A stretch of 64,000 nucleotides of DNA from a virus. Where the stretch lies: IMG/VR virus record IMGVR_UViG_3300027857_000017; one strand, written 5' to 3'. A program made the translations under genes and the position numbers. The notes beneath the pieces were generated by a model that ran no database searches, had not been told where the DNA came from, and saw only the letters and a list, made by a program, of their open reading frames with translations. This document shows, in pieces, positions 2,053 through 62,440 of the stretch. Each line of letters opens with the position of its first letter. Positions within the stretch are counted from its first letter, which is position 1.

Positions 2053-3096
2053 CTAGTAATCAAGATGTACTCCACTGTTTGCTATCTTATTCCGCTCAAC
2101 ATAACGACTATACGGCACTGTGATACCAGACCACCCACCGGCATCAGCCAGATCAACAATATTCGTCCCACCATTTTTTGCGGACGTTGCCCAGGTGTGG
2201 CGTCCATCATGGGCAGAGAGATTATCTATCCCTATTCTCTTGCCAAGCGCATTCACACGAGCTGTGATAGCCCGTTTTGACATACAGCCCTGGAGGCGGG
2301 TTCCCCCTTTCCCCCTCTGACTTCCCATTAAGAGCAGGTCATTCAGTGAGAGATTAGTATACTGGAAGTAGTTCATCAAAGCCAGTATCGTATCGCCAGT
2401 TAATTTGTGGTTTTGATGTTTCCCCACCTTCTCCCGATAAAAGGCGATTTGCCCAGCACTCATGTCGATATGGGATCTTTTCAGTTGCGCCAGCTCACCA
2501 CACCGCAATCCGTGATCAAAGAAGAGACAAATGAGCACACGATCACGCCAACCTTGTGGTGTATCAGGCTGATCCTTCAGTTGAGCAACCTGCTCCTTAG
2601 AGAGGACAATGGCATCAGGCTTTTTGCCTCCAATACGCACTACCTCTCTATTGCGGTCTACATTGCGCCCCTCTTTGTGACTATACCCTTTGACCATCTT
2701 GATAAGTGCTAATTCTGCTACCGGAAGATGTCCCGCAGAAGTGGCAAGTTGGCAGAGCGTTTTAATCACCGAGAGTCTCACGCCAATAGAACCGATGGTA
2801 TATCCCTTTTGTAACTGCCAACGAACAAAGCCATTGATGATTCCATGCGTCATATGTTGCCACGCACTCAAATCTACATCGGCTTCTTGCCAATGTGCCA
2901 GATCAAGGATGATGCCAGAACAGGCTATTCCTGCTTCTTTGAGGTAGATACCAAACACATTGAGTCCGTTGGCAAAACTACGAATAGTTTCAGGTGATCT
3001 TCGCTCCAGGTAGTGACGCACGATATTCTGGCGGGTCACCTCATCAGCGACCCGTCCAGCAACTTCTAGGGAGGAGTAGGGGATGAGGTCAGTCAT
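2053..3096 (-). CDS. int: tyrosine-type site-specific recombinase / phage integrase
   Basis: 347 aa; LRCGEL (box I Arg), HDGRHTWAT (H-x-x-R-H box II) and C-terminal catalytic Tyr in VPYSRY, all typical of the Xer/lambda integrase family. Confidence 0.85.
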   Translation of the reverse strand: MTDLIPYSSLEVAGRVADEVTRQNIVRHYLERRSPETIRSFANGLNVFGIYLKEAGIACSGIILDLAHWQEADVDLSAWQHMTHGIINGFVRWQLQKGYTIGSIGVRLSVIKTLCQLATSAGHLPVAELALIKMVKGYSHKEGRNVDRNREVVRIGGKKPDAIVLSKEQVAQLKDQPDTPQGWRDRVLICLFFDHGLRCGELAQLKRSHIDMSAGQIAFYREKVGKHQNHKLTGDTILALMNYFQYTNLSLNDLLLMGSQRGKGGTRLQGCMSKRAITARVNALGKRIGIDNLSAHDGRHTWATSAKNGGTNIVDLADAGGWSGITVPYSRYVERNKIANSGVHLDY

Positions 3097-16093: not shown

Positions 16094-16177
16094 GGGTGAG
16101 TATCCAAGTGGACAAAGGAAACTGTCTGTAAAACAGCGGGCATCATGCCTTCAGAGGTTCGAATCCTCTCTCACCCA
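16094..16177 (+). tRNA. tRNA-Tyr (anticodon GUA), type II with long variable arm
   Basis: Acceptor GGGTGAG/CTCACCC, TA at positions 8-9, D-arm TCC-AAGTGGACAAA-GGA, anticodon loop CTGTAAA with U33-GUA-A37, variable hairpin GGCAT-C-ATGCC, T-arm AGAGG-TTCGAAT-CCTCT, discriminator A. D-arm and anticodon arm resemble bacterial tRNA-Tyr. Confidence 0.6.
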
Positions 16178-16185
16178 CCCTCTCT

Positions 16186-17805
16186 CTAGAATTCGCCTTT
16201 AATGAAGGAATTCATAAGCAAAGGAGTGACGGTATCTAGTCCTACACAATCCATCGCCCTGCGGTCGTCTGGCGCATTGTTCGTCACATGAGTGGCGGTC
16301 ATCTGCACATTGATGATCTTGGCATTTGGGTTGACCTGAGCACGATACATTTCCAGTAATTGTGCAGGGTGTCCACCGCGCCCGGACCACGTTTCACTAT
16401 CTGTCAGGATCACAAAGGCGTCCACAGGCATTTTGTCGTACAACGCATACCTCATCGGCAGTGACAAATCAGTCCCACCTCCGCCAATTCCCTTAAGCGT
16501 TCTCACTACATCATCCAACCTCTGTGAAGGAGAGATGGTCAACTTCTGCACACCCGTATCTATGCCAATGAGATGGTAGTTCGGCTCAGTTCTCGCCATC
16601 ACCAACGCCATAGCGCCAGCAGCCGTATGCACATCCATACCAGGGATGCCATTGACCTGCCCATAGTGCATCGATCCACTGGTGTCCACTGCCAGCAAGA
16701 TGTGCTTTCCAGTGGGTTCTACTGCTTCAAATGACAGATAGAAGGCATCATTGAGTGCATCGATAATTTCACGTACTGGCTCCCAGGTATGATTCCCTCG
16801 CACGCCTTTCCCGCTGGCATACGTGGTCAATGCCGCAAGGATCTTAATTGGGTGAAGCTTCGCATTGTGAATCCTTTCGCGGTCCCGAAGACGCGACGTA
16901 ATCACTTTTGTCATCTCACCCATTGGCTTGATCACACCCTCCCTGGTCATCGTTGCCAGATTGCGCGTCATTGCCTCAAGCGGCATATCCTCTAGCAATG
17001 CCTCCCAGACCCGTATAGAATGCAAATGCTGAGTAGGAACTGCTTCGCGTGGTAGTTTGTAGGTCTTGATCAGAGAAGCCACTTCACGATCATCCTGAGC
17101 ACGTTTGGCTCGCTCGTATGCCCAGATGATCTTGAGCGCATCATCAGGATGCGGCTCATCACCAACAGACTCCCACCCGCCTTTGACAATCCAGTGATAG
17201 AGGGTGTTATACGTTGAAGTCTCTGCCTTTGGATGTGCCAGGCGGAGCAGATCGCGCTGACTGTAGCCATCCCTCTGCTGATACTTGAGCACCTGATACG
17301 CCAGATTGTGTTCTTTCCTATCATTGAACCAGGAGGCAACGGCACGACGATAGGCACGTCCCCAGCCTCTAAACTGTTTGGCATAGGCGACGAAGTGCAG
17401 GAGGTGCGTGCCGGTCCTGGCTACTTGTGGCAACACAGAGAGCGCATACTGGCGAATCTTCTCATCATCGGCAGCAGCACACCTTGCCAGCGCAAACAGA
17501 GCAGGGTCGTTGGAAGCAGCTCGTCCAGCCTTTGACACTTCTACGATGGAGGTCACTATATCACGCCCATTGCCCTCTTTAAGCATACGCTCCACGGTCT
17601 CTAAATTTTGTTTGGTCAATTCACGCTGCCCGACATAGAGTGTGTTGCTATTGCTCCCCAATATTAAGAACCTTAAGAGGCGCGTAGGATCATCAACAGA
17701 CCAACTAAACCCACCAGCGTTATTGAGAACTTGACTTGACCCAGGAATAGGCTCGGTTTGTGGCGTCTGCTGTGAAAAACGTCCAAAGTTGAGATAGTTC
17801 TTCAT
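16186..17805 (-). CDS. rsr: Ro60 ortholog Rsr (TROVE domain + von Willebrand A domain)
   Basis: About 540 aa; TROVE-like N-terminal region and C-terminal vWA with the MIDAS motif LLAVDTSGSM. Start taken at MKNYLNF (17805), which follows a GGAGGAAGGGGG Shine-Dalgarno. The track ORF extends to 17826. Confidence 0.8.
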   Translation of the reverse strand: MKNYLNFGRFSQQTPQTEPIPGSSQVLNNAGGFSWSVDDPTRLLRFLILGSNSNTLYVGQRELTKQNLETVERMLKEGNGRDIVTSIVEVSKAGRAASNDPALFALARCAAADDEKIRQYALSVLPQVARTGTHLLHFVAYAKQFRGWGRAYRRAVASWFNDRKEHNLAYQVLKYQQRDGYSQRDLLRLAHPKAETSTYNTLYHWIVKGGWESVGDEPHPDDALKIIWAYERAKRAQDDREVASLIKTYKLPREAVPTQHLHSIRVWEALLEDMPLEAMTRNLATMTREGVIKPMGEMTKVITSRLRDRERIHNAKLHPIKILAALTTYASGKGVRGNHTWEPVREIIDALNDAFYLSFEAVEPTGKHILLAVDTSGSMHYGQVNGIPGMDVHTAAGAMALVMARTEPNYHLIGIDTGVQKLTISPSQRLDDVVRTLKGIGGGGTDLSLPMRYALYDKMPVDAFVILTDSETWSGRGGHPAQLLEMYRAQVNPNAKIINVQMTATHVTNNAPDDRRAMDCVGLDTVTPLLMNSFIKGEF

Positions 17806-18036
17806 CGTCCCCCTTCCTCCACTCATAAAATGACACGGGCGAGAAAACGCTCATAGGTACCAAAAGCAGCGATAACCTACGAACTGCGGCCCGTGTCGAT
17901 AAGTCCTGTACTGAGCAAGTGAACTGGGGCGGGAATGTCAGCGATCCCAAAAGAAGCTAATAACCCGCCCATCTCGGCTCAGTACCATGATTGCGTGTCC
18001 TGGATAAAAAGCGATACTGGGTATCTTAAAGTCAAT

Positions 18037-36551: not shown

Positions 36552-38342
36552 ATGAGTCGGCAACATAGTATCGTCAAGCACCCATCAAATTACTTTTATG
36601 TCTCGCTTGAGGATGATTATCTCTTTCTGTATGACATCCTGGCAAAGCAGCTCGATCCTCTCAAGGTTGAACAAGGACAACCAAAGAGTGCTTCAAGTGA
36701 TTGCAAAGCCATGATTGCCGCTGTCCTAGAAGGATGGATGAATAGCAAACGTCCCAATGCGAAGAATGAGAGCGATCTCTATGTCCACTTCACCATTGAC
36801 GAATGGATACAACAATTACGCTATCGCTACAAACGCTCTGTCGTTATCCAGTGTCTTCATGAAATGGAAGAAGAGGGAACCTCTACTGATCCCCAAACTG
36901 GTAAGACGATAAAGGGAACCATCAAGAAGCGTCTCTTTGTTCAGAATACCTTTAGCTATCTTCTCAACCTTCCCGTTGTCCAGTCACTGCTTGACGATCT
37001 CCCTGAGCAGTCACCCTATGATATGAGACCCCGACCTGCACTGGGCAGACCGAAAATAAACGGTCTAAAAATGGACGGTATTTCTGAGGAAGAAAGCAGT
37101 CTAAAAAAAGACGGTATTAAAATAAACGGTTTAAAAAAAGACAGTATTCCCGAAAAGCAGTCTAAAAAAAGACCGATTAATGCCAAAAGCAGTCTAAAAA
37201 AAGACGCTCCGTTCTATACACAGAACTCGGTAATTACACAGAACTCAAATAACACAAAAGAGAGTGATTCCCGCGCATCATCGCAACCCACCATTTCGCA
37301 TCCGCCTACCGGCGATGCGACTCACTCACCTGTTGTTTCTCTGAGCAATGAGGACTTACTTGCAGAACTAGCACGACGAGGGATACTTCCTCAATCACCC
37401 TCATCCACATCGGGAGCAGAGTTATCCACTCGTAGCGTGAAGAATGTGGATAACCAAATAAGCAGAGATCTATCTACTGCCACGATAGTCGGTGAGGGTG
37501 ATGCACGTACCCTTGGTGGGGATGTGCAATCGCTTCTGCTCGAAGGATATCGACAGGTTGGCAAGAATGGCATTACCTCACTCACCTTTGAGGATCTCGT
37601 TACTGCACAGAATGCCGCTCTTTCCACGCACAACAACGACCTGAGTGACATTCACGCTATGAACGATGGAGCAACTACGCCATCACCCGCTCTCCCAGAA
37701 TCGCCTCTCAACACAAAAGAGGGACAGGACAATGAGACAGTTACACAAGGGAATGTGCAGGCAAGCGAGCAAGTTTCTTGTAGCCAGAGGGTGGCTATAC
37801 ACACAGAACTTCCAGATATGCCTCTACCAAATGAGAAAAACAAAAATAAGAAACCAAAGAATGTCGTGGACTTCCCTGCAGGACCTCCCCTCATGCCACC
37901 TCCAGATGCAAAGTGGGACGAGGAAACCGCAGTTCAAATCATGGAGTCCAAGAAGGGTCGGCACTATAGTGATACGACCCGTAGCCAGGAAAAGGGGGCG
38001 GCTAAGAAGGTGTTGAAGATGATCTATGATGATGGTCCGATCACGCGTGAGCAGTTTGAGGCGGCTACTGATGACATGATAGCGTGGCCCTTCTGGAAGG
38101 AGCATACGACTGTCAAGCCAATGATTAAAACCCTTCAGAAAGACGACAAAATTATTGCCATTCTGGATGACCTGAAGAAAAAACCAGTAAAGCGTCCAGG
38201 GAATGGATCATCTGCTGGGGTGGCTCAACAGAAAAATATCTATACCGAGATGTCTCTGGACAAAGATCTCATGGCGAAACGAATGGAACAGCGTCAAGCC
38301 ATTATTGACGCAAGAAAACAAGCTCAAGCAGTAGCGAGATAA
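36552..38342 (+). CDS. putative replication initiator / replisome organiser with internal iterons
   Basis: 596 aa, directly upstream of the DnaC-like and DnaB genes. The DNA inside the gene carries 5 iterons, analogous to lambda O/ori. Confidence 0.5.
   Translation: MSRQHSIVKHPSNYFYVSLEDDYLFLYDILAKQLDPLKVEQGQPKSASSDCKAMIAAVLEGWMNSKRPNAKNESDLYVHFTIDEWIQQLRYRYKRSVVIQCLHEMEEEGTSTDPQTGKTIKGTIKKRLFVQNTFSYLLNLPVVQSLLDDLPEQSPYDMRPRPALGRPKINGLKMDGISEEESSLKKDGIKINGLKKDSIPEKQSKKRPINAKSSLKKDAPFYTQNSVITQNSNNTKESDSRASSQPTISHPPTGDATHSPVVSLSNEDLLAELARRGILPQSPSSTSGAELSTRSVKNVDNQISRDLSTATIVGEGDARTLGGDVQSLLLEGYRQVGKNGITSLTFEDLVTAQNAALSTHNNDLSDIHAMNDGATTPSPALPESPLNTKEGQDNETVTQGNVQASEQVSCSQRVAIHTELPDMPLPNEKNKNKKPKNVVDFPAGPPLMPPPDAKWDEETAVQIMESKKGRHYSDTTRSQEKGAAKKVLKMIYDDGPITREQFEAATDDMIAWPFWKEHTTVKPMIKTLQKDDKIIAILDDLKKKPVKRPGNGSSAGVAQQKNIYTEMSLDKDLMAKRMEQRQAIIDARKQAQAVAR
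37060..37210 (+). repeat. iteron array (about 5 copies of GTCTAAAAAAAGAC-like units), candidate origin of replication
   Basis: Direct repeats of AGCAGTCTAAAAAAAGAC / AACGGTCTAAAAATGGAC / AACGGTTTAAAAAAAGAC within the initiator CDS. Confidence 0.5.
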
Positions 38343-48787: not shown

Positions 48788-49234
48788 ATGGCTGAAAAAT
48801 ATCTCTACTATACCCTCTCTGACCTGTTACCTCCTGGGAGTCATCTAGCGGTCAACACGGGCGTTGGAATGTCTCGTGGTGGAATACTTACAGTGATCAC
48901 TGAGGATGGCAAGATTACGGGGCAAGAGAGCGTGACTGATCAGGAACTTTCCCTGCTCCTGGCTCTCCTCGAAGACTATCCCTACCATTGCCCGTATGAG
49001 CATTTGCTCGCGGCTATGTGGAATGAAAACGTTGATGTGGTACGCACCAGGCTCAATCGGGCTGCAGATCATGGAACCTGGGATCTGGAGATTCGCTCTA
49101 TTCGTAACACCATGAATCGCCTGCGCAAGAAAACGAACTTGCTTGGGATTGATCATGTCGCCATCATCGAAACTGGCTACATGTTAGTCAAATTGGGAGA
49201 GGGACGCTTGAGTCTTGGGCACGCACGACGCTAA
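48788..49234 (+). CDS. hypothetical protein
   Basis: 148-aa ORF. Confidence 0.35.
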   Translation: MAEKYLYYTLSDLLPPGSHLAVNTGVGMSRGGILTVITEDGKITGQESVTDQELSLLLALLEDYPYHCPYEHLLAAMWNENVDVVRTRLNRAADHGTWDLEIRSIRNTMNRLRKKTNLLGIDHVAIIETGYMLVKLGEGRLSLGHARR

Positions 49235-49329
49235 AGGCGTGGATGTGGAAGCCACCATGGTCTCTTGTGCTATGCTATGCTTCCAGCATGCCCTGTCCAC
49301 TCTCGAACAGTGCGGGCAGATAAAAATGA

Positions 49330-50136
49330 CTATCCTGGAAAAGGAATAACCTTCTTCTCCTTCTTTGGTTTGCTGACCTTCACCTTCTGCTCTCTCATGC
49401 CTGCTACAGCGGACATAGCGCCTGCGATGTGCAGTAAGTCTCCAGCATGTCCAGCAAGTCTCTCAGCCTCACTATACGTCCGTGTAGTGGTATCGTAGCG
49501 TCTAATCTCTAGATGGTGATGTTCCTGCAGGTCGTACTTTATCACTTCAATGGTCCCACGCCTGGACTTCCACGCTTTGAGCACTTCTCTCTTCCTCCCA
49601 ATGAAAGGATGTTCTCTTGCCCAATGCTTGAGTGGACCCTGGATTTCTGGTAGTTCCCACAGTGGAATGTAGAGTTCGGGTGGTCGTGCCTCTTCTCCTC
49701 GCCTTTTATTTCCCTTCTGTGCCTCTGTGTACATACTGTAGTCAGGGTTAATGGCACGTATCAGCCAGGCGGGAGGATGCGCAAAGACCAATCCCTCGAA
49801 GGGGTTGCGCCACGGGAGGATGCGAGCCGCTGCCTTCTCACCAATGGAGCTGATAGCATCAGGATAATAATGGACACCCCAGGAGTCGATCTTGCATCTA
49901 ACTGAGACGGTGATGCCATCAAGCGTGAAGGTGTACATGTCCTCAAAAATGGCTTTGAATGAGGGATCGTTGCGAATGGCGTCCAGGTTCATGGCTGAAT
50001 CTCCCCTTTTTGAGCGTAGTGTGGCGGAAAAAGCGAAAAATGGGAAGAGAGACGGTACTTTTGTGAGGATATGCCTCTTTTGTCTGGTCTGACCTGTAAA
50101 GAAGAAAAAAGTGAATCTATACCATATCTGTTTCAC
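49330..50136 (-). CDS. putative plasmid-type replication protein (unknown family)
   Basis: Gene lies between the iteron/centromere-like repeats and parAB; probable start MNLDAIRND (about 49988). Confidence 0.3.
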   Translation of the reverse strand: MKQIWYRFTFFFFTGQTRQKRHILTKVPSLFPFFAFSATLRSKRGDSAMNLDAIRNDPSFKAIFEDMYTFTLDGITVSVRCKIDSWGVHYYPDAISSIGEKAAARILPWRNPFEGLVFAHPPAWLIRAINPDYSMYTEAQKGNKRRGEEARPPELYIPLWELPEIQGPLKHWAREHPFIGRKREVLKAWKSRRGTIEVIKYDLQEHHHLEIRRYDTTTRTYSEAERLAGHAGDLLHIAGAMSAVAGMREQKVKVSKPKKEKKVIPFPG

Positions 50137-50174
50137 GTCATAGACATTTCCTCTTTTCTTGATGATCTTTAGCT

Positions 50175-50194
50175 AACCTGCTACTTAGCAGGTT
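50175..50194. promoter_or_regulatory. parS-like palindrome AACCTGCTA-ct-TAGCAGGTT
   Basis: Perfect 9-bp arms; related copies at 50285-50300 and 51974-51990 flank parAB. Confidence 0.5.
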
Positions 50195-50329
50195 AGCAGG
50201 AGAAGATGAAGTCTTCATAATAAATAGAGAAACATCTCTCAGTATTTTAAGCCTATTTTTGAATATATTTTATAACCTAATCATAACCTGCTACCTAGCA
50301 TCTTCTTAAATTGTAAGAAGGTTCATATA

Positions 50330-50560
50330 TCGCTCTTATGAGATGGATAGAAGAGAGTTATGCTCATTTCATAAGATGGAAAGGAAGTAGTTATGAGATA
50401 TTCCTTATCAGATGCTGAAGAGAACAGAAGATACTTATGAAAATGACCTGCTGATAAGGATCTTATGAACTCATACTAAGATGTTTATGACGTGCTAAGA
50501 AGGTGCTTCTATGATAGTTCTGATGAGAGGAGATCATGAGCAGATGAGAAGGATATCTTC
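50330..50560. repeat. array of 8 or more TTATGA-containing direct/inverted repeats (iteron-like)
   Basis: CTTATGAGATGG, TCATAAGATGG, GTTATGAGATA, CTTATCAGATG, CTTATGAAAATG, CTTATGAACTC, TTTATGACGTG, CTATGATAG in an AT-rich non-coding stretch. Confidence 0.5.
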
Positions 50561-50583
50561 ATCTGCTCATCTGCCACTTGTGT

Positions 50584-51042
50584 TTACTTCGGGAGATCCT
50601 CCCAGGTGAATGGGCGATCAAGGAGATTCGGGTCTAATGGATATCCTGCTTCTAGTAACACCCTGAGCAGGGTCCTATTGAACGCATCGACTTTACTTTG
50701 CCCAGCTCGCTCCATGAGGTCGTAGAATGCTGGGAGCATACGCTTGTCCACCATCACGTTCTCCTTCTTGTACCTCTGCTCAAAAGGAACTTTGCTGCGA
50801 CGGTCATGGGAAGAGGGTTGCCCCATACCTTTCCAGGTGCTGATGTTTGGCAATGAGATGGGAGCAGGGAGTAGCGGTGACTCTGGGACTTGCGTTGACA
50901 CTGGAGACGATGATGGTGTCTCTCCAGTGACTGGAGACGATTGTAGAGGTGCTTCCCCCACTTTGCGTTCTACTTGGCTCCTCATCCTGAGTAATCGTTC
51001 TGTAGCACTTTCCTGTGGTGGATCAGGCGTGTTCTGTTGCAT
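50584..51042 (-). CDS. putative centromere-binding partition protein (ParB/ParG-like)
   Basis: Small basic gene overlapping parA; C-terminal VPFEQRYKKENVMVDKRMLPAFYDLMERAG is ribbon-helix-helix-like. Confidence 0.4.
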   Translation of the reverse strand: MQQNTPDPPQESATERLLRMRSQVERKVGEAPLQSSPVTGETPSSSPVSTQVPESPLLPAPISLPNISTWKGMGQPSSHDRRSKVPFEQRYKKENVMVDKRMLPAFYDLMERAGQSKVDAFNRTLLRVLLEAGYPLDPNLLDRPFTWEDLPK

Positions 51043-51973
51043 ATGCCTCGCCTCTTTCGTCGGTCAGTTTGACGAGCTGTCGGTAACATTCTCGCATGGC
51101 TAACACGTTTTTCATTTTTTCTGTATCCTTCAATGTGTAGGTGAAGATGGATCGTCCTGCTTTGTAAGCTTCCTGAAAAACAACCTTCTTTGGGATGTTG
51201 AAATCGGTCATCTTCTCAGGGAGAATGGCTCGAAAATCGCGCAGAATGTCGTTCGCTAATCCACTCGACTGCACGAGGTTGGGGATGAGTGTCAGGATAT
51301 TCACTTTGAACTTCAACTCGGCCTCAACCACTTGAATTTGATTAAGAAGTAATTCGAATGCGCGAATAGATGTTTGTTCTGCCTGAATGGGAATGATCAA
51401 GCCTGATCGAAGCAAATCATGAGACTCTTTGGTAAGATCGCCAGCCCCTTCCCGATCAAGCAGTAATTCGCCCTTGGCGTTTACTGGGATACCTACAGCG
51501 CGAATGATATTATCTGTGAGGTTTCCAAAGTAAGAAGGCGAATCAATCACGATGACATCAAAGGCATGTTTGAATGCCTGTAAGAGATCGAGGAGACGCG
51601 TCTCCCTGCTTCTTTCTCTATTGAGGTCTTTATCCAGTTCCATCATCTGAAAGTTACTTGGAATGGCAAAGAACTTCTCACCAGGCACCTCCTGGATAAG
51701 ATCTTGAGGATTGATCTTCTGGGGATTGATCAGTGCATCGTGGAGAGTCGGAATATCCATTCGTATCCAGAAGTCTTTGAGTCCTATTCCCTCCGTTCCA
51801 TGTCCTTGTGGGTCAAGATCGATAAATAAGACGTTTTTGCTGCCGTCTTCTGCTTCAGCAGCAGCTTCGTCAAAACCCACCGTACTCTTGCCTACGCCAC
51901 CTTTTTGGTTAATTACAGCTTTTACGCGTGCCATAGGTGAACTCTTCTCCTCTTCGCAAAATAACTTGCTCAT
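51023..51973 (-). CDS. parA: ParA/Soj-family partition ATPase
   Basis: Deviant Walker A KGGVGKST at the N-terminus. Confidence 0.85.
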   Translation of the reverse strand: MSKLFCEEEKSSPMARVKAVINQKGGVGKSTVGFDEAAAEAEDGSKNVLFIDLDPQGHGTEGIGLKDFWIRMDIPTLHDALINPQKINPQDLIQEVPGEKFFAIPSNFQMMELDKDLNRERSRETRLLDLLQAFKHAFDVIVIDSPSYFGNLTDNIIRAVGIPVNAKGELLLDREGAGDLTKESHDLLRSGLIIPIQAEQTSIRAFELLLNQIQVVEAELKFKVNILTLIPNLVQSSGLANDILRDFRAILPEKMTDFNIPKKVVFQEAYKAGRSIFTYTLKDTEKMKNVLAMRECYRQLVKLTDERGEAYATEHA

Positions 51974-52267
51974 AACCTGCTACGTAGCGGCTATAGAGCA
52001 TCTCTTGCCAGTATGGCATTACAGGAGGAAAAGAGTCAACGAACATGTGTTCTGAGAGGTTTCTCTGAGAGATATGAGAAGAATCTCTCTTGTTTGATGC
52101 AGGTCAATCTGCTATACTGCTCCCATGACGGGTCTGGTATTCCTCCCGCTTGCGGGTTTGCAACATGTTCCAGTTCTTGAACGCGTTCTGACCCGTTCCC
52201 GTCTGGGGTTGAAACCACGTCAACTTAAACTGCGGTTTATTCCCAACCCCTCCCGTTAGGGATTGCT

Positions 52268-52300
52268 CGGCCAAATAAAAACACCGCACCTCTCTGGTGC
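52268..52300. terminator. bidirectional Rho-independent terminator
   Basis: AACACCGCACC-tctct-GGTGCGGTGTT followed by TTTTGG on the plus strand and TTTTTATTT on the minus strand. Confidence 0.55.
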
Positions 52301-53601
52301 GGTGTTTTGGTTCAGTCTTTAATATCCTTGGTCATAGAGGATAGAGTGCAGGGCCTCGTTGACGATCTGATTGAGGCGGTAACTAGGATGATCCTTGAGG
52401 CAGATTTGCAATCGTTCCATGACACCGAGTTGGATACATGCCTCTAGTTTGGTGTTGAATGGCTCAGTGCGATGTCGGCGTTTCAACTCAGTTTCCTCTG
52501 CGATATATGCGGGATCATCAGGGTCAAAGTTCAGATCTTCTTCGCTCATTCGCCTCTCCTCGCTGTATAGCGGAACGTCCATTCCTGTTTCGTTTCACTG
52601 TACTTATAAGAAATTTTGCCACCGATACCGCTTTTATCGAGAGCTTCCTGAAACGCATCAGACTCATGAATGCGTTCGCCTAGCATTTCACCATCCACAA
52701 TGATCACCCACCGTCCAGGATTCTTTGCCTTCCAGAATTTCAGATCTTTGTTGGCAGATGCAAAAAGTTCTCGCATCTTTGCCTGCATCGCTGCCTCTCC
52801 AGTCAGTTTCATCATCGTTGTCCTTCCTCTGTGCTGAAGAGCATTCCCAGATGGAAAAGCGCGAGCTTCTCTTCTGGCGTTTGCGGCGGATAAGGTTGAG
52901 CATCGCTCACCAGCCAGAGGCTCGACGCTGTACCAATGGTTCCATAGTGAGCACATACCTTCTCAGTACTCAGCATCTCAAGAAGTTCGCTGTCTGTCGA
53001 GAATGAGTGGTTCCCTGCAATGTACTGGCTTGTCTGAAGATAAGCGACGACATCAGCATCTGACCATTGCCGTACCTCAATGATTCTCCCTAGATGTGCT
53101 TCAACCACCTGTTGTACCAACTCCTCTGGTATCTCATCTTTGGGGAGCCATGCACTTCCATCTGGTTCAGTACCATCGTTGTCATATGCTGATCTATAGG
53201 GACCTAGCATTTTGAATGCTGAGGAAACGCTGTCAGGGCGCAATTCCAATACGTTCATAGTACCCTCTCTCAGTTACGTCCTCTCAGTTACGTCGCTCCC
53301 ATTCTTCTCCGTCATTCAGCCACATTTCAATCCCTTCCTCCAGTCCATCTACATCGGCCCAGGTTGCGTCTGCGCCCCAGGAAATGCCCATCCTCTTCCA
53401 CTCTGGATCATAGAGTCCCTCGGCCCGCTCTGCAAACTCTTTTCCTGCGCTGTCCAAAATGCGAATTATCAGTCCCACTGTCTTTTCAGAGCATCCAGCC
53501 AAATCTTTTCGGAGGGAGGTGGACCCTATTATTTCTTCTAGGTCCACCTCCTCGTAGGTGAAAGAGCGCTTTTCGTCCTCTTTCTTTTGCTTGATTTCTT
53601 C

Positions 53602-54726: not shown

Positions 54727-56055
54727 ATGAGTGTGTTTACACAAGAAACCCTAACAGACAGGCAGCGTAACCTGTTGAACCTTCTCAATCTCCAAGGATG
54801 GAGCATCGCGAAGATTGACGAAGATGAGGATGACTATGCTATTACAGCAAGTCCATCCTCTATCCCCCACTCGTGCCCTATCTGCCAGCACACTCACCTC
54901 TTCAAGCATGGCTCTGATGCCCAGGGCATCCACGATACCCCGATCCACGGCAAACGCGTTGTCATCAAGGTAGACAGGCAACGCTATCGCTGTACGAACT
55001 GTGGCAAAGCCTTCTTCCAATCGTTGCCAGATGTGGATGAGAAGCGTTTCTGTACGAAGCGCCTCATTGCCTACATTCAGCGTCGATCCATGAGCAGAAC
55101 CTTCCTCTCGCTGGCAGAGGAAGTAGGTCTACATGAGCGCACGGTGAGGCGTATCTTCCATGATTATGTAGAGGCGTTAGAACAATCCACTCACTTTGCC
55201 ACGCCCCGCGTCATGGGTCTGGACGAGCTGCATGTCATCCACCAGGCGCGAGGCATCATTACCAACATTGAGGCAGGCACGATTGTCGAATTTCTCCATG
55301 ATCGTAAGAAGCAAACCATCATGCGCTACCTCTCGCACCTCGAAAAGAAGGATCAGGTTGAAATAGCCTGTATCGACATGTGGCAACCCTACAGAGAGGC
55401 CATCAGGGAAGTCTTGCCCCAGGCCAGGATCGTGGTTGACAAATTTCACGCTGTTAAGCTCGCCAATGAGGCCCTTGAACAAGTGCGTAAAGAGGTGAGA
55501 GCAGGTCTATCCGACAAACAGAGGCGCGCCCTTATGCATGATCGGTTTTTGCTCCTCAAGCGGCGAAGCGATTTGAAGGACAAAGAGAAGCTGATCTTAG
55601 AAACCTGGACGGAGAACTTCCCAGCACTTGGCAAGGCATATGCCATGAAGGAGAGCTTCTTTGAGATTTGGAATGCGAAGACGGTGGATGAGGCAAATGA
55701 CCTCTACTATGCGTGGATCTGCCAGATTACGCCGGAGATCGCCGACGCCTTTGTCCCGATCACGCTGACGATGGAGGAATGGGGCGATGAGATCTTCGCC
55801 TACTTCGATCACAGATATACCAATGCCTACACTGAAAGTCTAAATGGGTTGGCGAGGGTTGCGGCCAGACTTGGAAGAGGGTACTCCTTTGATGTGCTGA
55901 GAGCACGATTGCTCTACGGGATTGGGCAGCACCCGAACCGAAAGAAGAAAGAGAAGAGTGTGGAATCACTCCTAGCAGGCGTTAATATTTCCACACTCGT
56001 CGAATCCGCTCAGGCAGAGCTTGAAACAGAGGAACCCACATTAAAAGCCGAATAG
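54727..56055 (+). CDS. ISL3-family transposase
   Basis: N-terminal zinc-finger CPICQ..CTNCGK (zf-ISL3) and DDE core; 442 aa. Confidence 0.8.
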   Translation: MSVFTQETLTDRQRNLLNLLNLQGWSIAKIDEDEDDYAITASPSSIPHSCPICQHTHLFKHGSDAQGIHDTPIHGKRVVIKVDRQRYRCTNCGKAFFQSLPDVDEKRFCTKRLIAYIQRRSMSRTFLSLAEEVGLHERTVRRIFHDYVEALEQSTHFATPRVMGLDELHVIHQARGIITNIEAGTIVEFLHDRKKQTIMRYLSHLEKKDQVEIACIDMWQPYREAIREVLPQARIVVDKFHAVKLANEALEQVRKEVRAGLSDKQRRALMHDRFLLLKRRSDLKDKEKLILETWTENFPALGKAYAMKESFFEIWNAKTVDEANDLYYAWICQITPEIADAFVPITLTMEEWGDEIFAYFDHRYTNAYTESLNGLARVAARLGRGYSFDVLRARLLYGIGQHPNRKKKEKSVESLLAGVNISTLVESAQAELETEEPTLKAE

Positions 56056-61049: not shown

Positions 61050-62219
61050 TTATTGTCCCGTTGCTTTCAATTGCGCAGCCGCCTCTGCCATGAGCGTGCC
61101 TATGTCTGCCATGATGGACGAGAGTGGACGTGGAGACGGGAGTGGTTCTGTCTGACCTCCTGATGACGGAGTAGGTTGAGGTGGAGGGGGACTAAACCAC
61201 GGATTGCCTCCCAATGACCAGACGGAAATGTTGGAGAGTCCCTGACTCAAAATCGCTTGCATTCTCATATCCATTGTGGTTGAGTCAGCATAAGAGTAAG
61301 ATATCCCGCTTTGTGACCACATCATCTCTCCAGATGCCGGGTCCCGTACGGCAGTAGAGAAGCCTGGAAGACTTGATGCTTGCCTACTAGGAAACTTCTT
61401 GACGTGATAGGTCCCTGTGGCTCCCGAATAGGCATAAGAAGGTATGCCTATCACGATCCTGTTGACATCGGTGATTTTACTTTTCGTCCACTGGCAGCAG
61501 GCAGTGAGTGTCAAAAGTGGCGCAATAGGTGTGCCCGCTCCATTATCCGATTGCAGATCATAACACATGGCGGTGATGTAATCTGCTGGCAGTGGTTCCA
61601 GATCTTCATACTTGAAGGGATAATAGCCTTGATATTTGGCGTTAAAAATCACCGGCCCGTCAATCATTAACTGGTAGTTCTGAGCATGCAAGGCATTGCC
61701 AAGTTGTTTGATAAATGCCAGGTAACCTTGATACTGCTGCTCGCTCCACTTACTAAACCCCTCGAAATCCAACTCAATCCCGGTGAATTGTGCTGTCTTC
61801 AGAAACTCTACTGTGGTGGTGATAAAGTCTTGCGTCAGGAGAGGAGAAGATGTGAGCGCAACCATTCCTGCCGTTTGTCCTGAGATGGTGACGAATTGCC
61901 TCTCGCTAGCTGCTTTGATAGATGCCACATTCTCAGGGCTGTAGCCAAGGCATCTTGCGCTTGTCACGGTGTCCTGCACAAGAGTGCCAGTATCTTGTAA
62001 GGTGTAGTACTGAGGTTTCAGTACTGTAATCTGTTTGGTGATATATTCAGTTTGGACATCACACGATAAATCTGGATAGAGCCAGGCCATCGTTGTCACT
62101 TCCATCTTCTTCCCCTCTGGTATAACTGTCTTCTTGGGAATTGGCGCAGGCGTCGTTCCGCAAGAGATGAGAATGAACGTGATGAGAATACTTATGAGAA
62201 TAAGCACACGCTTGTTCAT
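61050..62219 (-). CDS. lipoprotein with a glycoside hydrolase family 18 (chitinase-like) domain
   Basis: Signal peptide plus lipobox LISCG; GH18 catalytic motif GIELDFEGF (DxDxE); Pro-rich C-terminus. Confidence 0.6.
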   Translation of the reverse strand: MNKRVLILISILITFILISCGTTPAPIPKKTVIPEGKKMEVTTMAWLYPDLSCDVQTEYITKQITVLKPQYYTLQDTGTLVQDTVTSARCLGYSPENVASIKAASERQFVTISGQTAGMVALTSSPLLTQDFITTTVEFLKTAQFTGIELDFEGFSKWSEQQYQGYLAFIKQLGNALHAQNYQLMIDGPVIFNAKYQGYYPFKYEDLEPLPADYITAMCYDLQSDNGAGTPIAPLLTLTACCQWTKSKITDVNRIVIGIPSYAYSGATGTYHVKKFPSRQASSLPGFSTAVRDPASGEMMWSQSGISYSYADSTTMDMRMQAILSQGLSNISVWSLGGNPWFSPPPPQPTPSSGGQTEPLPSPRPLSSIMADIGTLMAEAAAQLKATGQ

Positions 62220-62440
62220 CAGCGGTGGTGAGGTGTCCCACTCCCACTGAGCAGTTTCTCTACGGTCTCTTGACGCACACGATACGACTCACGCTTGTTG
62301 AGATGAGGCAACCGCACTGCTTCCAGGAGACCGTTCTTGATCCATCTTCTCACGGTTGTGTCATCCACGCGAAGAATTGCGGCCACCTCGTGGACGGTGA
62401 GCAGTTTCGTCTCTTTCTCTTCCAGTGTTTTCAATGTCAT
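62219..62440 (-). CDS. excisionase-family HTH_17 DNA-binding protein
   Basis: LTVHEVAAILRVDDTTVRRWIKNGLLEAVRL. Confidence 0.55.
   Translation of the reverse strand: MTLKTLEEKETKLLTVHEVAAILRVDDTTVRRWIKNGLLEAVRLPHLNKRESYRVRQETVEKLLSGSGTPHHR

What the first reader, a model, noticed from the sequence alone, without database searches (positions are those of the whole stretch)
49330..52300. Second, plasmid-type maintenance module: rep candidate, TTATGA iterons, parAB and three parS-like palindromes
ParA (KGGVGKST) and a small basic partner sit between copies of AACCTGCTA-NN-TAGCAGGTT-type palindromes (50175-50194, 50285-50300, 51974-51990), next to an AT-rich stretch with 8 or more TTATGA repeats. 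Together with the separate DnaB/DnaC replication module, this suggests the element can persist as an episomal phage-plasmid as well as integrate; it has an integrase and four excisionase-like HTH_17 genes.
Basis: partly seen in the sequence, partly recalled or inferred. Interest (0 to 1): 0.55.

Follow-up and report, generated by a model that had tools for sequence, protein, structure and literature searches.

The report
Partition cassette in a phage-like element
This stretch holds a genuine DNA-segregation cassette (a ParA ATPase, a small adaptor protein from an undescribed family, and the DNA repeats that adaptor most likely binds) in a large phage-like element from soil. This is the ordinary equipment of a low-copy plasmid or phage-plasmid, and the proposed replication gene and replication origin beside it are not supported.

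Summary
TAACCTGCTA occurs four times in 64 kb, all flanking the ParA operon (0.06 expected). TTATGA occurs five times exactly, plus three near copies, within 190 nt (0.3 expected).

Eight related cassettes from other metagenome contigs carry the same 9-mer, AGCAGGTTA. It appears as 11-bp direct repeats or as a 22-bp palindrome, usually at three fixed places:
- between a conserved promoter and the parA ribosome-binding site;
- about 200-300 nt after the partner gene;
- about 350-430 nt after the partner gene.

ParA and the partner are the only genes shared by all these contigs. The partner evolves as two modules. Its N-terminal peptide follows the ParA class, and its C-terminal domain follows the DNA repeat. 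That is the behaviour expected of a ParB-like centromere-binding adaptor.

The cassette is best read as a type-Ib-like partition system with a new centromere-binding protein family: 39 clusters among 1.8 billion proteins, with no Pfam, PDB, plasmid or phage match.

The "rep candidate" resembles no known Rep protein. Some of its homologues occur without ParA or repeats. The TTATGA array travels with the par cassette, not with that gene. A better origin candidate lies inside the initiator-like gene upstream of DnaC/DnaB.

An episomal lifestyle is plausible but was not shown.

The parts
52286..52300 (-). Intrinsic-terminator-like hairpin plus T-run ending the upstream gene. It marks the upstream boundary of the par transcription unit.
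   Evidence: stem GCACC/GGTGC followed by GGTGTTTTTA.
52010..52039 (-). Sigma-70-like par promoter: -35 TTGACT (52039-52034), an 18-nt spacer with an extended TG, and -10 CATACT (52015-52010).
   Evidence: The same cgTTGACtcg...GTAATGGnATACT block aligns upstream of parA in L004, L005, L007, L010, L013 and L014. Activity is inferred.
51962..51994 (-). Site O, a putative operator and centromere site between the promoter and the parA ribosome-binding site. In ParA sense it reads GCCGCTACGT-AGCAGGTTA-tg-AGCAAGTTA.
   Evidence: An equivalent site lies within about 50 nt of the annotated ParA start in L004, L005, L007, L009 and L010; in L004 the called start is probably too far upstream.
51023..51934 (-). 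parA: a Walker-type (deviant Walker A, KGGVGKST) ParA/MinD-superfamily ATPase of 303 aa with no N-terminal HTH extension.
   Evidence: It is identical to P0001, and the closest relatives are 60-70% identical.
50584..51042 (-). Partner gene (152 aa), the putative centromere-binding adaptor. It has an N-terminal helix motif ERLLRMRSQVE, a Pro-rich linker, and a conserved C-terminal domain (GQPSxHDRRSxVPF..RYKKENxMxDKR followed by two helices).
   Evidence: The 20-nt overlap with parA is also seen in L004 and L005.
50537..50572 (-). Stable hairpin directly after the partner stop codon. It is a likely operon terminator or RNA-stabilising stem and has no T-run.
   Evidence: -23.3 kcal/mol, z -3.1. 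Equivalent hairpins sit at the same place in L004 and L005.
50336..50526 (.). AT-rich array of strand-biased TTATGA boxes (TCATAA in ParA sense): 5 exact and 3 near copies, mostly spaced at multiples of 11 bp, often with a second block, GAAGA. Function is unproven; it may be part of the centromere.
   Evidence: Pooled over nine cassettes, TCAT phasing peaks at 11.0 bp (power 28.7 against a null of 14.9 +/- 1.8; 0 of 2000).
50273..50302 (-). Site S1. In ParA sense it reads GATGCTAGGT-AGCAGGTTA-tg-ATTAGGTTA.
   Evidence: Equivalent sites lie +190 to +300 nt after the partner stop in L004, L005, L007, L009 and L010.
50174..50195 (.). Site S2, a perfect 22-bp palindrome: TAACCTGCTA-CT-TAGCAGGTTA.
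   Evidence: Equivalent sites lie +350 to +430 nt after the partner stop in L004, L005, L007 and L010. In L004 and L005 the site sits directly upstream of a TTGACA -35 box for the next gene.
49330..49992 (-). It is not part of the conserved cassette and its function is unknown. The model shows two repeats of a beta-sheet-plus-helix unit.
   Evidence: It lies next to other ParA operons in L017 and L021 but not in L018-L020.

Best explanation
The region 50174-52039 is a self-contained, type-Ib-like partition (par) cassette on the minus strand.

**Proposed mechanism**
1. One promoter drives parA and a translationally coupled 152-aa partner gene.
2. The partner is a two-module adaptor. Its C-terminal domain binds the AGCAGGTTA repeats, probably as a dimer, and possibly with a ribbon-helix-helix fold.
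3. The repeats occur as 11-bp direct copies or as a 22-bp palindrome at three sites. Site O lies over the 5' leader of the operon, where binding would repress the operon. Sites S1 and S2 lie downstream of the operon.
4. The N-terminal peptide of the partner contacts and stimulates its own class of ParA.
5. ParA-ATP bound to the nucleoid then positions partner-coated copies of the element so that each daughter cell inherits one.
6. The phased TTATGA array between the operon and S1 most likely extends or shapes the partition complex.

**Status of each step**
- Shown: the genes, the repeats, their conservation and their co-variation.
- Inferred: DNA binding, autoregulation, ATPase stimulation and segregation.

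The cassette implies that the host element, a phage-like element of at least 133 kb, spends time as a low-copy extrachromosomal replicon.
For: **ParA identity.**

**Operon structure.** Promoter, 20-nt gene overlap and terminal hairpin.

**Repeat statistics.**
- Exact TAACCTGCTA: 4 found against 0.06 expected.
- TTATGA: 5 found against 0.30 expected.

**Positional conservation.** AGCAGGTTA-type sites recur near the ParA start and at about +190 to +300 and +350 to +430 nt after the partner stop in the window, L004, L005, L007 and L010; L009 has the upstream site and one downstream cluster.

**Only the cassette is shared.** ParA and the partner are the only genes the window shares with all these contigs within +/-10 kb. 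The factor that reads the sites is therefore most simply encoded in the cassette itself.

**Modular co-variation.**
- L010, L013 and L014 have a different ParA class: 22% identical to the window's ParA, 70-74% identical to each other. They also have a different partner N-terminus (DPLxRRxSLYQxT). They keep the same partner C-terminal domain (55-68% identity) and the same repeat family and promoter.
- L006 and L008 have the window's ParA class (about 50% identity) and the same N-terminal motif (xRLxxxRxxI/V). Their C-terminal domain is unrelated and their repeats are different (for example TCCTACATAG). In L008 these repeats lie on both sides of the operon.
- L017's partner is 45% identical over the C-terminal domain and has a changed strand segment (TRSLSVDKR against KENVMVDKR). 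It has its own repeat (GATTAAATTAGGACTTAAT) both upstream and downstream.

**Precedents in the literature.**
- pSM19035 omega is a ribbon-helix-helix protein. It binds direct or inverted heptads at three promoter-overlapping parS sites and uses its N-terminal tail to engage the ATPase (PMC3074150).
- pCXC100 ParB is a ribbon-helix-helix centromere binder with no sequence-detectable motif, and it binds 9-nt direct repeats (PMC3074162).
- pB171 par2 is flanked by parC1 and parC2 (PMC4270457).
Against: - No binding, ATPase or stability data exist.
- The partner's fold is unproven. The monomer AlphaFold model is poor (pLDDT 58). Foldseek found nothing significant; the best hits were TCP domains at E about 2. 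A profile search against PDB and Pfam scans of 38 family members gave nothing.
- The TCAT/TTATGA array persists in L017 although that cassette's palindrome differs. The array may therefore be read by something other than the partner's sequence-specific surface.
- ParA-like genes also occur in strictly integrative elements.
- No member of the partner family is found in curated plasmids or phages. No relative therefore has a known lifestyle.
Confidence: 0.72

Rival explanations
1. The region is a complete plasmid-type replicon. The ORF at 49330-50136 is a Rep initiator, the TTATGA repeats are its iterons (oriV), and parAB with parS sits beside it. This would give the phage a second, plasmid-mode origin, as in P1 oriR.
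For: - The array is AT-rich (GC 0.35).
- It has about 22-bp, helically phased direct repeats with two conserved blocks, as many iteron origins do.
- The 220-aa gene lies next to three different ParA operons: in the window, in L017 and in L021.
Against: - The 220-aa protein has no Rep-family match by Pfam, NCBIfam or PHROGs and no significant structural match.
- L004, L005, L009 and L010 have the array but not this gene.
- L018-L020 have the gene but no array and no ParA.
- There is no DnaA box in the region.
- A better origin candidate exists. Five roughly 24-nt iterons lie in a GC-0.30 dip at 37050-37215, inside the 596-aa gene directly upstream of the DnaC-like and DnaB genes. The only perfect DnaA box in the window lies 230 nt further on.
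Confidence: 0.08
2. The AGCAGGTTA sites are operators for a transcription factor other than the partner, for example a lysogeny regulator of the element. In this reading the real centromere is the phased TTATGA array, which the partner binds.
For: - S2 sits directly upstream of the next gene's -35 box in L004 and L005. O sits in the par leader. Both look like operator positions.
- The TCAT array accompanies every cassette that has this partner C-terminal family, including L017.
Against: - Contigs that share nothing else within +/-10 kb with the window except ParA and the partner keep the same sites.
- The sites change exactly where the partner's C-terminal domain changes.
- Combined operator-and-centromere sites are the norm in type Ib systems (PMC3074150).
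Confidence: 0.12
3. The ParA and partner pair does not segregate the element. It may belong to a chromosomal or cell-division system, or it may be a remnant carried by a strictly integrative prophage or island.
For: - An integrase is present.
- Many ParA homologues at about 40% identity are labelled 'chromosome partitioning protein'.
- No direct evidence for an episome exists.
Against: - The close family (49-70% identity) is found only on gene-dense contigs rich in unannotated ORFs that carry some phage- or plasmid-type genes (for example Amidase_2, P22 antirepressor, Dam, ArdC). Two relatives are in IMG/VR.
- None was found in 185,579 species-representative genomes.
- The intact promoter, coupled genes and conserved cis sites argue for a working system.
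- The integrase lies in the middle of phage-like genes rather than at an element-host junction.
Confidence: 0.08

Closest known systems
pSM19035 delta/omega type Ib partition system (Streptococcus pyogenes)
   Same: - A small Walker ParA without an N-terminal HTH.
[quoted passage not shown]
- Three separate sites, at least one overlapping the par promoter, so the protein acts as both repressor and centromere binder (PMC3074150).
   Different: - The repeat unit here is 9 bp on an 11-bp period, not contiguous 7-bp heptads.
- The partner is twice as long, with a roughly 75-aa Pro-rich linker.
[quoted passage not shown]
- An additional AT-rich phased TTATGA array is present.
pCXC100 ParA/ParB (Leifsonia xyli), type Ib
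   Same: The centromere-binding protein had no sequence-detectable DNA-binding motif, yet its C-terminal half is a ribbon-helix-helix dimer that binds 9-nt direct repeats cooperatively (PMC3074162). This is the same situation as here: a C-terminal DNA-binding domain, a 9-nt core and no Pfam hit.
   Different: - pCXC100 has nine uninterrupted repeats in a single centromere. Here two to three copies occur at each of three dispersed sites.
- A profile of the present family does not detect the pCXC100 ParB chain in PDB.
pB171 par2 (parC1-parA-parB-parC2)
   Same: The operon is flanked on both sides by centromere regions made of short repeats. The upstream region doubles as the promoter/operator (PMC4270457 for the parC1/parC2 layout; the repeat details are from my own knowledge).
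   Different: The repeat sequences and the centromere-binding protein family differ. Here the downstream region is composite: an array plus two palindromic sites.
Phage-plasmids such as P1, N15 and SSU5
   Same: A phage-like element carrying a ParA-type partition operon alongside phage replication genes (PMC7969092).
   Different: - P1 and N15 use type Ia ParA with HTH-ParB and a known plasmid replicon.
- Here no plasmid Rep, capsid or terminase gene was seen, and no extrachromosomal state was shown.
- No DNA or partner-protein similarity to any record in the phage or plasmid collections was found.

Membership tests
ParA/MinD superfamily partition ATPase | Deviant Walker A motif (KGGxGK[ST]) and a P-loop NTPase domain scoring above curated thresholds | tested here: met
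   NQKGGVGKST is present. AAA_31 scores 96.7 bits (cutoff 27) and CbiA 40.7 bits (cutoff 25.4). PHROG 164 matches at E 8e-33. No NCBIfam equivalog reaches its cutoff; the best is ParA_partition at 60.8 bits against 180.
Type Ib partition system | ParA lacks the N-terminal HTH autoregulatory extension found in type Ia | tested here: met
   The protein has 303 aa, and the P-loop starts within the first roughly 15 residues of the 303-aa form.
Type Ib partition system | A small centromere-binding protein is encoded immediately downstream and co-expressed | tested here: met
   The 152-aa ORF overlaps parA by 20 nt. The same arrangement is seen in L004 and L005, and a small partner ORF abuts or overlaps parA in all eleven cassettes examined.
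Type Ib partition system | The centromere-binding protein has a ribbon-helix-helix DNA-binding fold | tested here: inconclusive
   - The pattern is compatible: a conserved xxMxDKR segment, a helix, a G-x-S/T/N turn and a second helix.
- The monomer model is weak (pLDDT 58).
- Foldseek, the PDB profile search and Pfam scans were all non-significant.
Type Ib partition system | Short repeats near or over the par promoter act as centromere and operator and are specific to the cognate centromere-binding protein | tested here: met
   This was tested in silico only. The sites are statistically enriched, conserved in position, and co-vary with the partner's C-terminal domain. Physical binding was not testable.
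Type Ib partition system | The N-terminal tail of the centromere-binding protein is specific for its ParA and stimulates it | tested here: met
   Only co-variation was tested. Two N-terminal motif types track the two ParA classes independently of the C-terminal domain. ATPase stimulation was not testable.
Type Ib partition system | The cassette stabilises a low-copy replicon in cis | not testable with these tools
   This needs a plasmid-loss assay.
Iteron-type plasmid origin with Rep | A cognate Rep initiator gene lies adjacent to, and is co-inherited with, the iterons | tested here: not met
   The 220-aa neighbour has no Rep similarity. The gene and the array occur independently of each other.
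Iteron-type plasmid origin with Rep | Phased direct repeats in an AT-rich region, usually with DnaA boxes | tested here: inconclusive
   Phased repeats and AT-richness are present. No DnaA box lies in the region.
Phage-plasmid | Phage virion and lysis genes and plasmid maintenance genes on one replicon | tested here: inconclusive
   - The par cassette is present.
- DUF5131 and Dam (Pfam) plus five PHROG family matches are found in the window, and an Amidase_2 gene lies on the same contig outside it.
- No capsid, portal or terminase gene was seen in the roughly 72 kb that could be read.
Phage-plasmid | Maintained extrachromosomally during lysogeny | not testable with these tools
   No reads, coverage data or complete circular contig were available.

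The most novel reading that the evidence does not exclude
The cassette may define a new kind of composite centromere. A roughly 200-bp AT-rich array of TCATAA boxes, phased at 11 bp, is shared by cassettes whose sequence-specific palindromes differ. The array would act as a generic wrapping or spreading platform, or alternatively as a Rep-independent plasmid-mode origin. The flanking palindromes would supply specificity. The adaptor's ParA-binding peptide, its DNA-binding domain and the cis sites would be exchanged as separate modules among large soil phage-plasmids, allowing them to escape incompatibility.
Probability: 0.2. Interest if true: 0.55.

Novelty: new member of a known kind. Interest (0 to 1): 0.38.

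Why it matters
The cassette adds a previously undescribed centromere-binding protein family to the ParA-type partition systems, together with its likely DNA sites. It has no Pfam, PDB, plasmid-database or phage-database match.

It also gives a clean natural example of modular evolution. The ParA-contacting peptide and the DNA-binding domain have been swapped independently.

The cassette marks a lineage of large (at least 133 kb), uncultivated, phage-like elements from soil as probable low-copy episomes. It supplies a specific 9-bp motif and coordinates that could be tested directly.

It is not a new principle, because partition cassettes in phage-plasmids are well known.

Tried and rejected
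**DNA similarity.** blastn of 49000-53000 against the plasmid and phage collections found no match.

**Collection scans with single proteins.** ParA alone found nothing in viral or genome contigs. The partner profile found nothing in genome contigs.

**Partner protein against curated collections.** tblastn against plasmids and phages found no match.

**Tests of a ribbon-helix-helix fold for the partner.** None was informative:
- AlphaFold monomer, pLDDT 58;
- Foldseek against PDB, best E about 2;
- profile searches against PDB sequences with 13 and with 38 family members;
- Pfam scans of all members at a relaxed E-value; a single RHH_9 hit at E 0.13 is noise.

**Classification of the 220-aa ORF.**
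- Pfam, NCBIfam and PHROGs gave nothing.
- BFVD gave nothing at E <= 0.001.
- The AFDB50 library was unavailable.
- ORFs of similar size after other cassettes (L007, L013) are unrelated to it.

**Circularity and lifestyle.** A look-up with the GH18 protein at the right end of the window failed. The missing roughly 3.9 kb of the source contig and its ends could not be retrieved, so no terminal-overlap test was possible.

**A check that first looked negative.** The one-mismatch count of TAACCTGCTA (6 found against 2.5 expected) looked like chance. The exact-match test was the appropriate one.

**Host taxon.** It could not be determined.
Full report
**1. What is in the sequence**

The minus strand of 50.1-52.1 kb carries a compact transcription unit.
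- A terminator-like hairpin with a T-run at 52286-52300 ends the upstream gene.
- A sigma-70-like promoter follows: TTGACT, 18 nt with an extended TG, then CATACT, at 52039-52010.
- The ParA ORF contains NQKGGVGKST and matches AAA_31 and CbiA above their thresholds. It also matches PHROG 164, 'ParA-like partition protein'.
- The ORF is open from 51973. The identical database protein (P0001) has 303 aa and starts at the ATG at 51934, and relatives start at the equivalent place.
- A 152-aa ORF (50584-51042) overlaps the end of parA by 20 nt. This overlap is also seen in L004 and L005.
- A stable hairpin follows the stop codon (-23.3 kcal/mol, z -3.1).
- The partner is close to neutral overall (pI 8.0), with a basic patch at residues 76-105.

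**2. Are the repeats real?**

Yes.
- Exact TAACCTGCTA occurs four times in 64 kb, at 50174, 50186 (- strand), 50284 and 51973. The expected count is 0.06, and no shuffle out of 100 reached four.
- An earlier one-mismatch count was uninformative.
- Only 50174-50195 is a perfect 22-bp palindrome. The other two sites have one good arm, a degenerate inverted arm and a second direct copy 11 bp away.
- TTATGA occurs five times exactly, plus three one-mismatch copies, in 50336-50526. This 231-nt stretch has GC 0.35. A composition-matched simulation expects 0.30 copies, and 0 of 5000 runs reached five. No other 231-nt stretch of the window holds more than one copy.

**3. Related loci**

The DNA has no match in the curated plasmid or phage collections. 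The protein database contains a close ParA family at 49-70% identity.

I retrieved the surrounding DNA for these relatives and for relatives of the partner. This gave L004-L010, L013, L014, L017 and L021.

Read in the ParA sense, the window's motif is AGCAGGTTA. It usually appears as 11-bp direct repeats (AGCAGGTTAtgAGCAAGTTA) and sometimes as the palindrome.

In the window, L004, L005, L007 and L010 it occupies the same three places; L009 has the upstream site and one downstream cluster:
- site O, between a conserved promoter block (cgTTGACtcg...GTAATGGnATACT) and the parA ribosome-binding site;
- site S1, 190-300 nt after the partner stop codon;
- site S2, 350-430 nt after the partner stop codon. 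In L004 and L005, S2 lies directly upstream of a TTGACA box for the next gene.

A tblastn of all window ORFs against these loci shows that ParA and the partner are the only genes consistently shared. Whatever reads the sites is therefore most simply encoded by the cassette itself.

**4. Modular co-variation**

This is the strongest evidence.

| Loci | ParA | Partner N-terminus | Partner C-terminal domain | DNA repeats |
|---|---|---|---|---|
| Window, L004, L005, L007, L009 | class A (60-69% identical to the window) | xRLxxxRxxV/I | window type (66-68% identical over the last ~75 aa) | AGCAGGTTA type |
| L010, L013, L014 | class B (22% to the window; 70-74% to each other) | DPLxRRxSLYQxT | window type (55-68% identical) | AGCAGGTTA-type family, same promoter block |
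| L006, L008 | class A (about 50% identical) | xRLxxxRxxI/V | unrelated | different; TCCTACATAG in L008, on both sides of the operon |
| L017 | a third type (28% identical to the window over 200 aa) | different | 45% identical; strand segment TRSLSVDKR instead of KENVMVDKR | own repeat upstream and downstream |

The N-terminal peptide therefore tracks ParA, and the C-terminal domain tracks the DNA repeat. This is the expected behaviour of a ParB-like adaptor whose tail activates ParA and whose body binds the centromere.

It matches the described biology of three systems:
- pCXC100 ParB, which binds 9-nt direct repeats through a ribbon-helix-helix fold that sequence analysis did not reveal (PMC3074162);
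- pB171 par2, which is flanked by parC1 and parC2 (PMC4270457).

**5. The partner family**

The family is small and uncharacterised.
- A word-indexed search found 12 relatives.
- An exhaustive HMMER search of 1.84 billion representative proteins found 39 clusters at E <= 0.001.
- There is no Pfam, NCBIfam or PHROG match.
- There is no tblastn hit in the plasmid or phage collections.

The family alignment shows a conserved basic stretch, a short xxMxDKR segment, a helix, a G-x-S/T/N turn and a second helix. This pattern is compatible with a ribbon-helix-helix fold, but I could not demonstrate that fold.

**6. The TTATGA array**

The gap between the operon hairpin and S1 is AT-rich (GC 0.30-0.44) in nine cassettes. 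It holds strand-biased TCAT(AA) boxes whose spacings are multiples of 11 bp.
- The pooled periodogram peaks sharply at 11.0 bp: power 28.7 against a null maximum of 14.9 +/- 1.8, with 0 of 2000 randomisations reaching it.
- The array follows the partner gene whatever gene comes next: an HTH_17 gene, the 220-aa gene, or genes on the other strand.
- It is present in L017, whose palindrome is different.
- No comparable AT-rich gap follows the partner in L006 and L008, whose partner C-terminal domain is unrelated and whose next gene starts about 110-120 nt away.

I take it as part of the partition locus, probably a lower-specificity or architectural part of the centromere. This is the least certain element of the model.

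**7. The 'rep candidate'**

- Other assemblies call this gene at 220 aa (49330-49992), not 268 aa.
- It has only eight relatives and no family assignment.
- It lies beside three different ParA operons. In the window and L017 it is downstream on the same strand. In L021 it is upstream and divergent.
- In L018-L020 it occurs with no ParA and no AT-rich array. Cassettes in L004, L005, L009 and L010 lack it.
- In the window and L017 it sits in a shared block that also includes an HTH gene, beside cassettes of different type. This suggests it belongs to the backbone of the element.

Nothing identifies it as an initiator.

**8. Where replication more likely starts**

The 596-aa ORF (36552-38342) directly upstream of the DnaC-like and DnaB genes has these features:
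- five copies of a roughly 24-nt iteron (about AGCAGTCTAAAAAAAGACGGTAT) at 37050-37215;
- a GC dip to 0.30 over the same stretch;
- the only perfect DnaA box in the window, 230 nt downstream.

This is the lambda O/P-type layout, with the origin inside the initiator gene. No DnaA box lies in the par region.

**9. What kind of element is this?**

- The window has an integrase, DUF5131, Dam and other methyltransferases, HNH, an ISL3 transposase, Ro60, and many ORFs without matches.
- Five of ten further proteins hit PHROG families.
- Another assembly of the same element (100% identical over 13 kb) continues past the left end of the window with an RNase_T exonuclease, an Amidase_2 and a protein of more than 900 aa. 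That contig runs about 69 kb beyond the window, so the element spans at least 133 kb.
- The integrase is internal to phage-like genes rather than at a junction with host genes.
- Two relatives of the partner lie on IMG/VR contigs. None was found in 185,579 species-representative genomes.

This fits a large phage-like, possibly phage-plasmid, element (PMC7969092). However, no capsid or terminase gene, no circular junction and no coverage data could be examined. The episomal state is inferred from the presence of an apparently functional par cassette.

**10. Verdict**

- The rep-plus-iteron part is not supported.
- The lifestyle claim is plausible but untested.

The cassette is a new member of the type-Ib-like partition systems, with a novel centromere-binding protein family and a composite downstream centromere region. 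It is useful and cleanly defined, but it is not a new principle.

Noticed in passing
window 37050-37215 (iterons), 37445-37453 (DnaA box), inside ORF 36552-38342: Five copies of a roughly 24-nt repeat (about AGCAGTCTAAAAAAAGACGGTAT), spaced about 32 nt apart in a GC-0.30 dip, lie inside the 596-aa gene directly upstream of the DnaC-like and DnaB genes. The only perfect TTATCCACA box in the window lies 230 nt downstream. The layout resembles a lambda O/P-type origin inside the initiator gene.
   Followed up: partly
window 16094-16179 (+) and 16186-17826 (-): A Ro60/TROVE plus vWA protein gene lies 7 nt from a tRNA-Tyr(GTA) gene on the opposite strand. This may be a Ro60 protein with a tRNA-like or Y-RNA-like partner carried by a mobile element.
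   Followed up: no
window 50576 and 51982/52015 (ends of L001, L002 and L003): Other assemblies of the same element, all 100% identical, break at the two edges of the par operon. One break is inside the post-operon hairpin and the other is at site O. This may mean that co-existing variants carry the same cassette in different flanking sequence.
   Followed up: partly
L015 13097-21044 (beyond the window's left end); window 2053-3096: The element continues past window position 1 with an RNase_T exonuclease, an Amidase_2, an HNH protein and a protein of more than 900 aa. That contig extends about 69 kb further, so the total span is at least 133 kb. The tyrosine recombinase has a SAM-like N-terminal domain, as XerC/D-type recombinases do (from my own knowledge), and lies in the middle of phage-like genes. 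It could be a dimer-resolution enzyme rather than an integrase.
   Followed up: partly
window 62219-62440 (-), 54727-56055 (+): An HTH_17 gene closely resembles the HTH_17 gene that directly follows the par cassette in L004 and L005 (L009 also has an HTH_17 gene downstream of its cassette). In the window it lies 10 kb upstream of parA, with an ISL3 transposase in between. This suggests a rearrangement.
   Followed up: partly
L017 8269-10669; L021 3718-5914; window 49330-51934: The uncharacterised 220-aa protein family lies next to three different ParA-partner operons, in two different orientations. It is found without any ParA nearby in L018-L020.
   Followed up: partly
L008 5187-9080: One relative carries an FtsK/SpoIIIE translocase and an actin-like (ALP_N) protein directly upstream of its ParA cassette. 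That would be two segregation-type systems side by side.
   Followed up: no
window 49427-49467: A 20-nt tandem duplication (ATGTCCAGCAAGTCTCTCAGC, two copies) lies inside the 3' part of the 220-aa gene.
   Followed up: no
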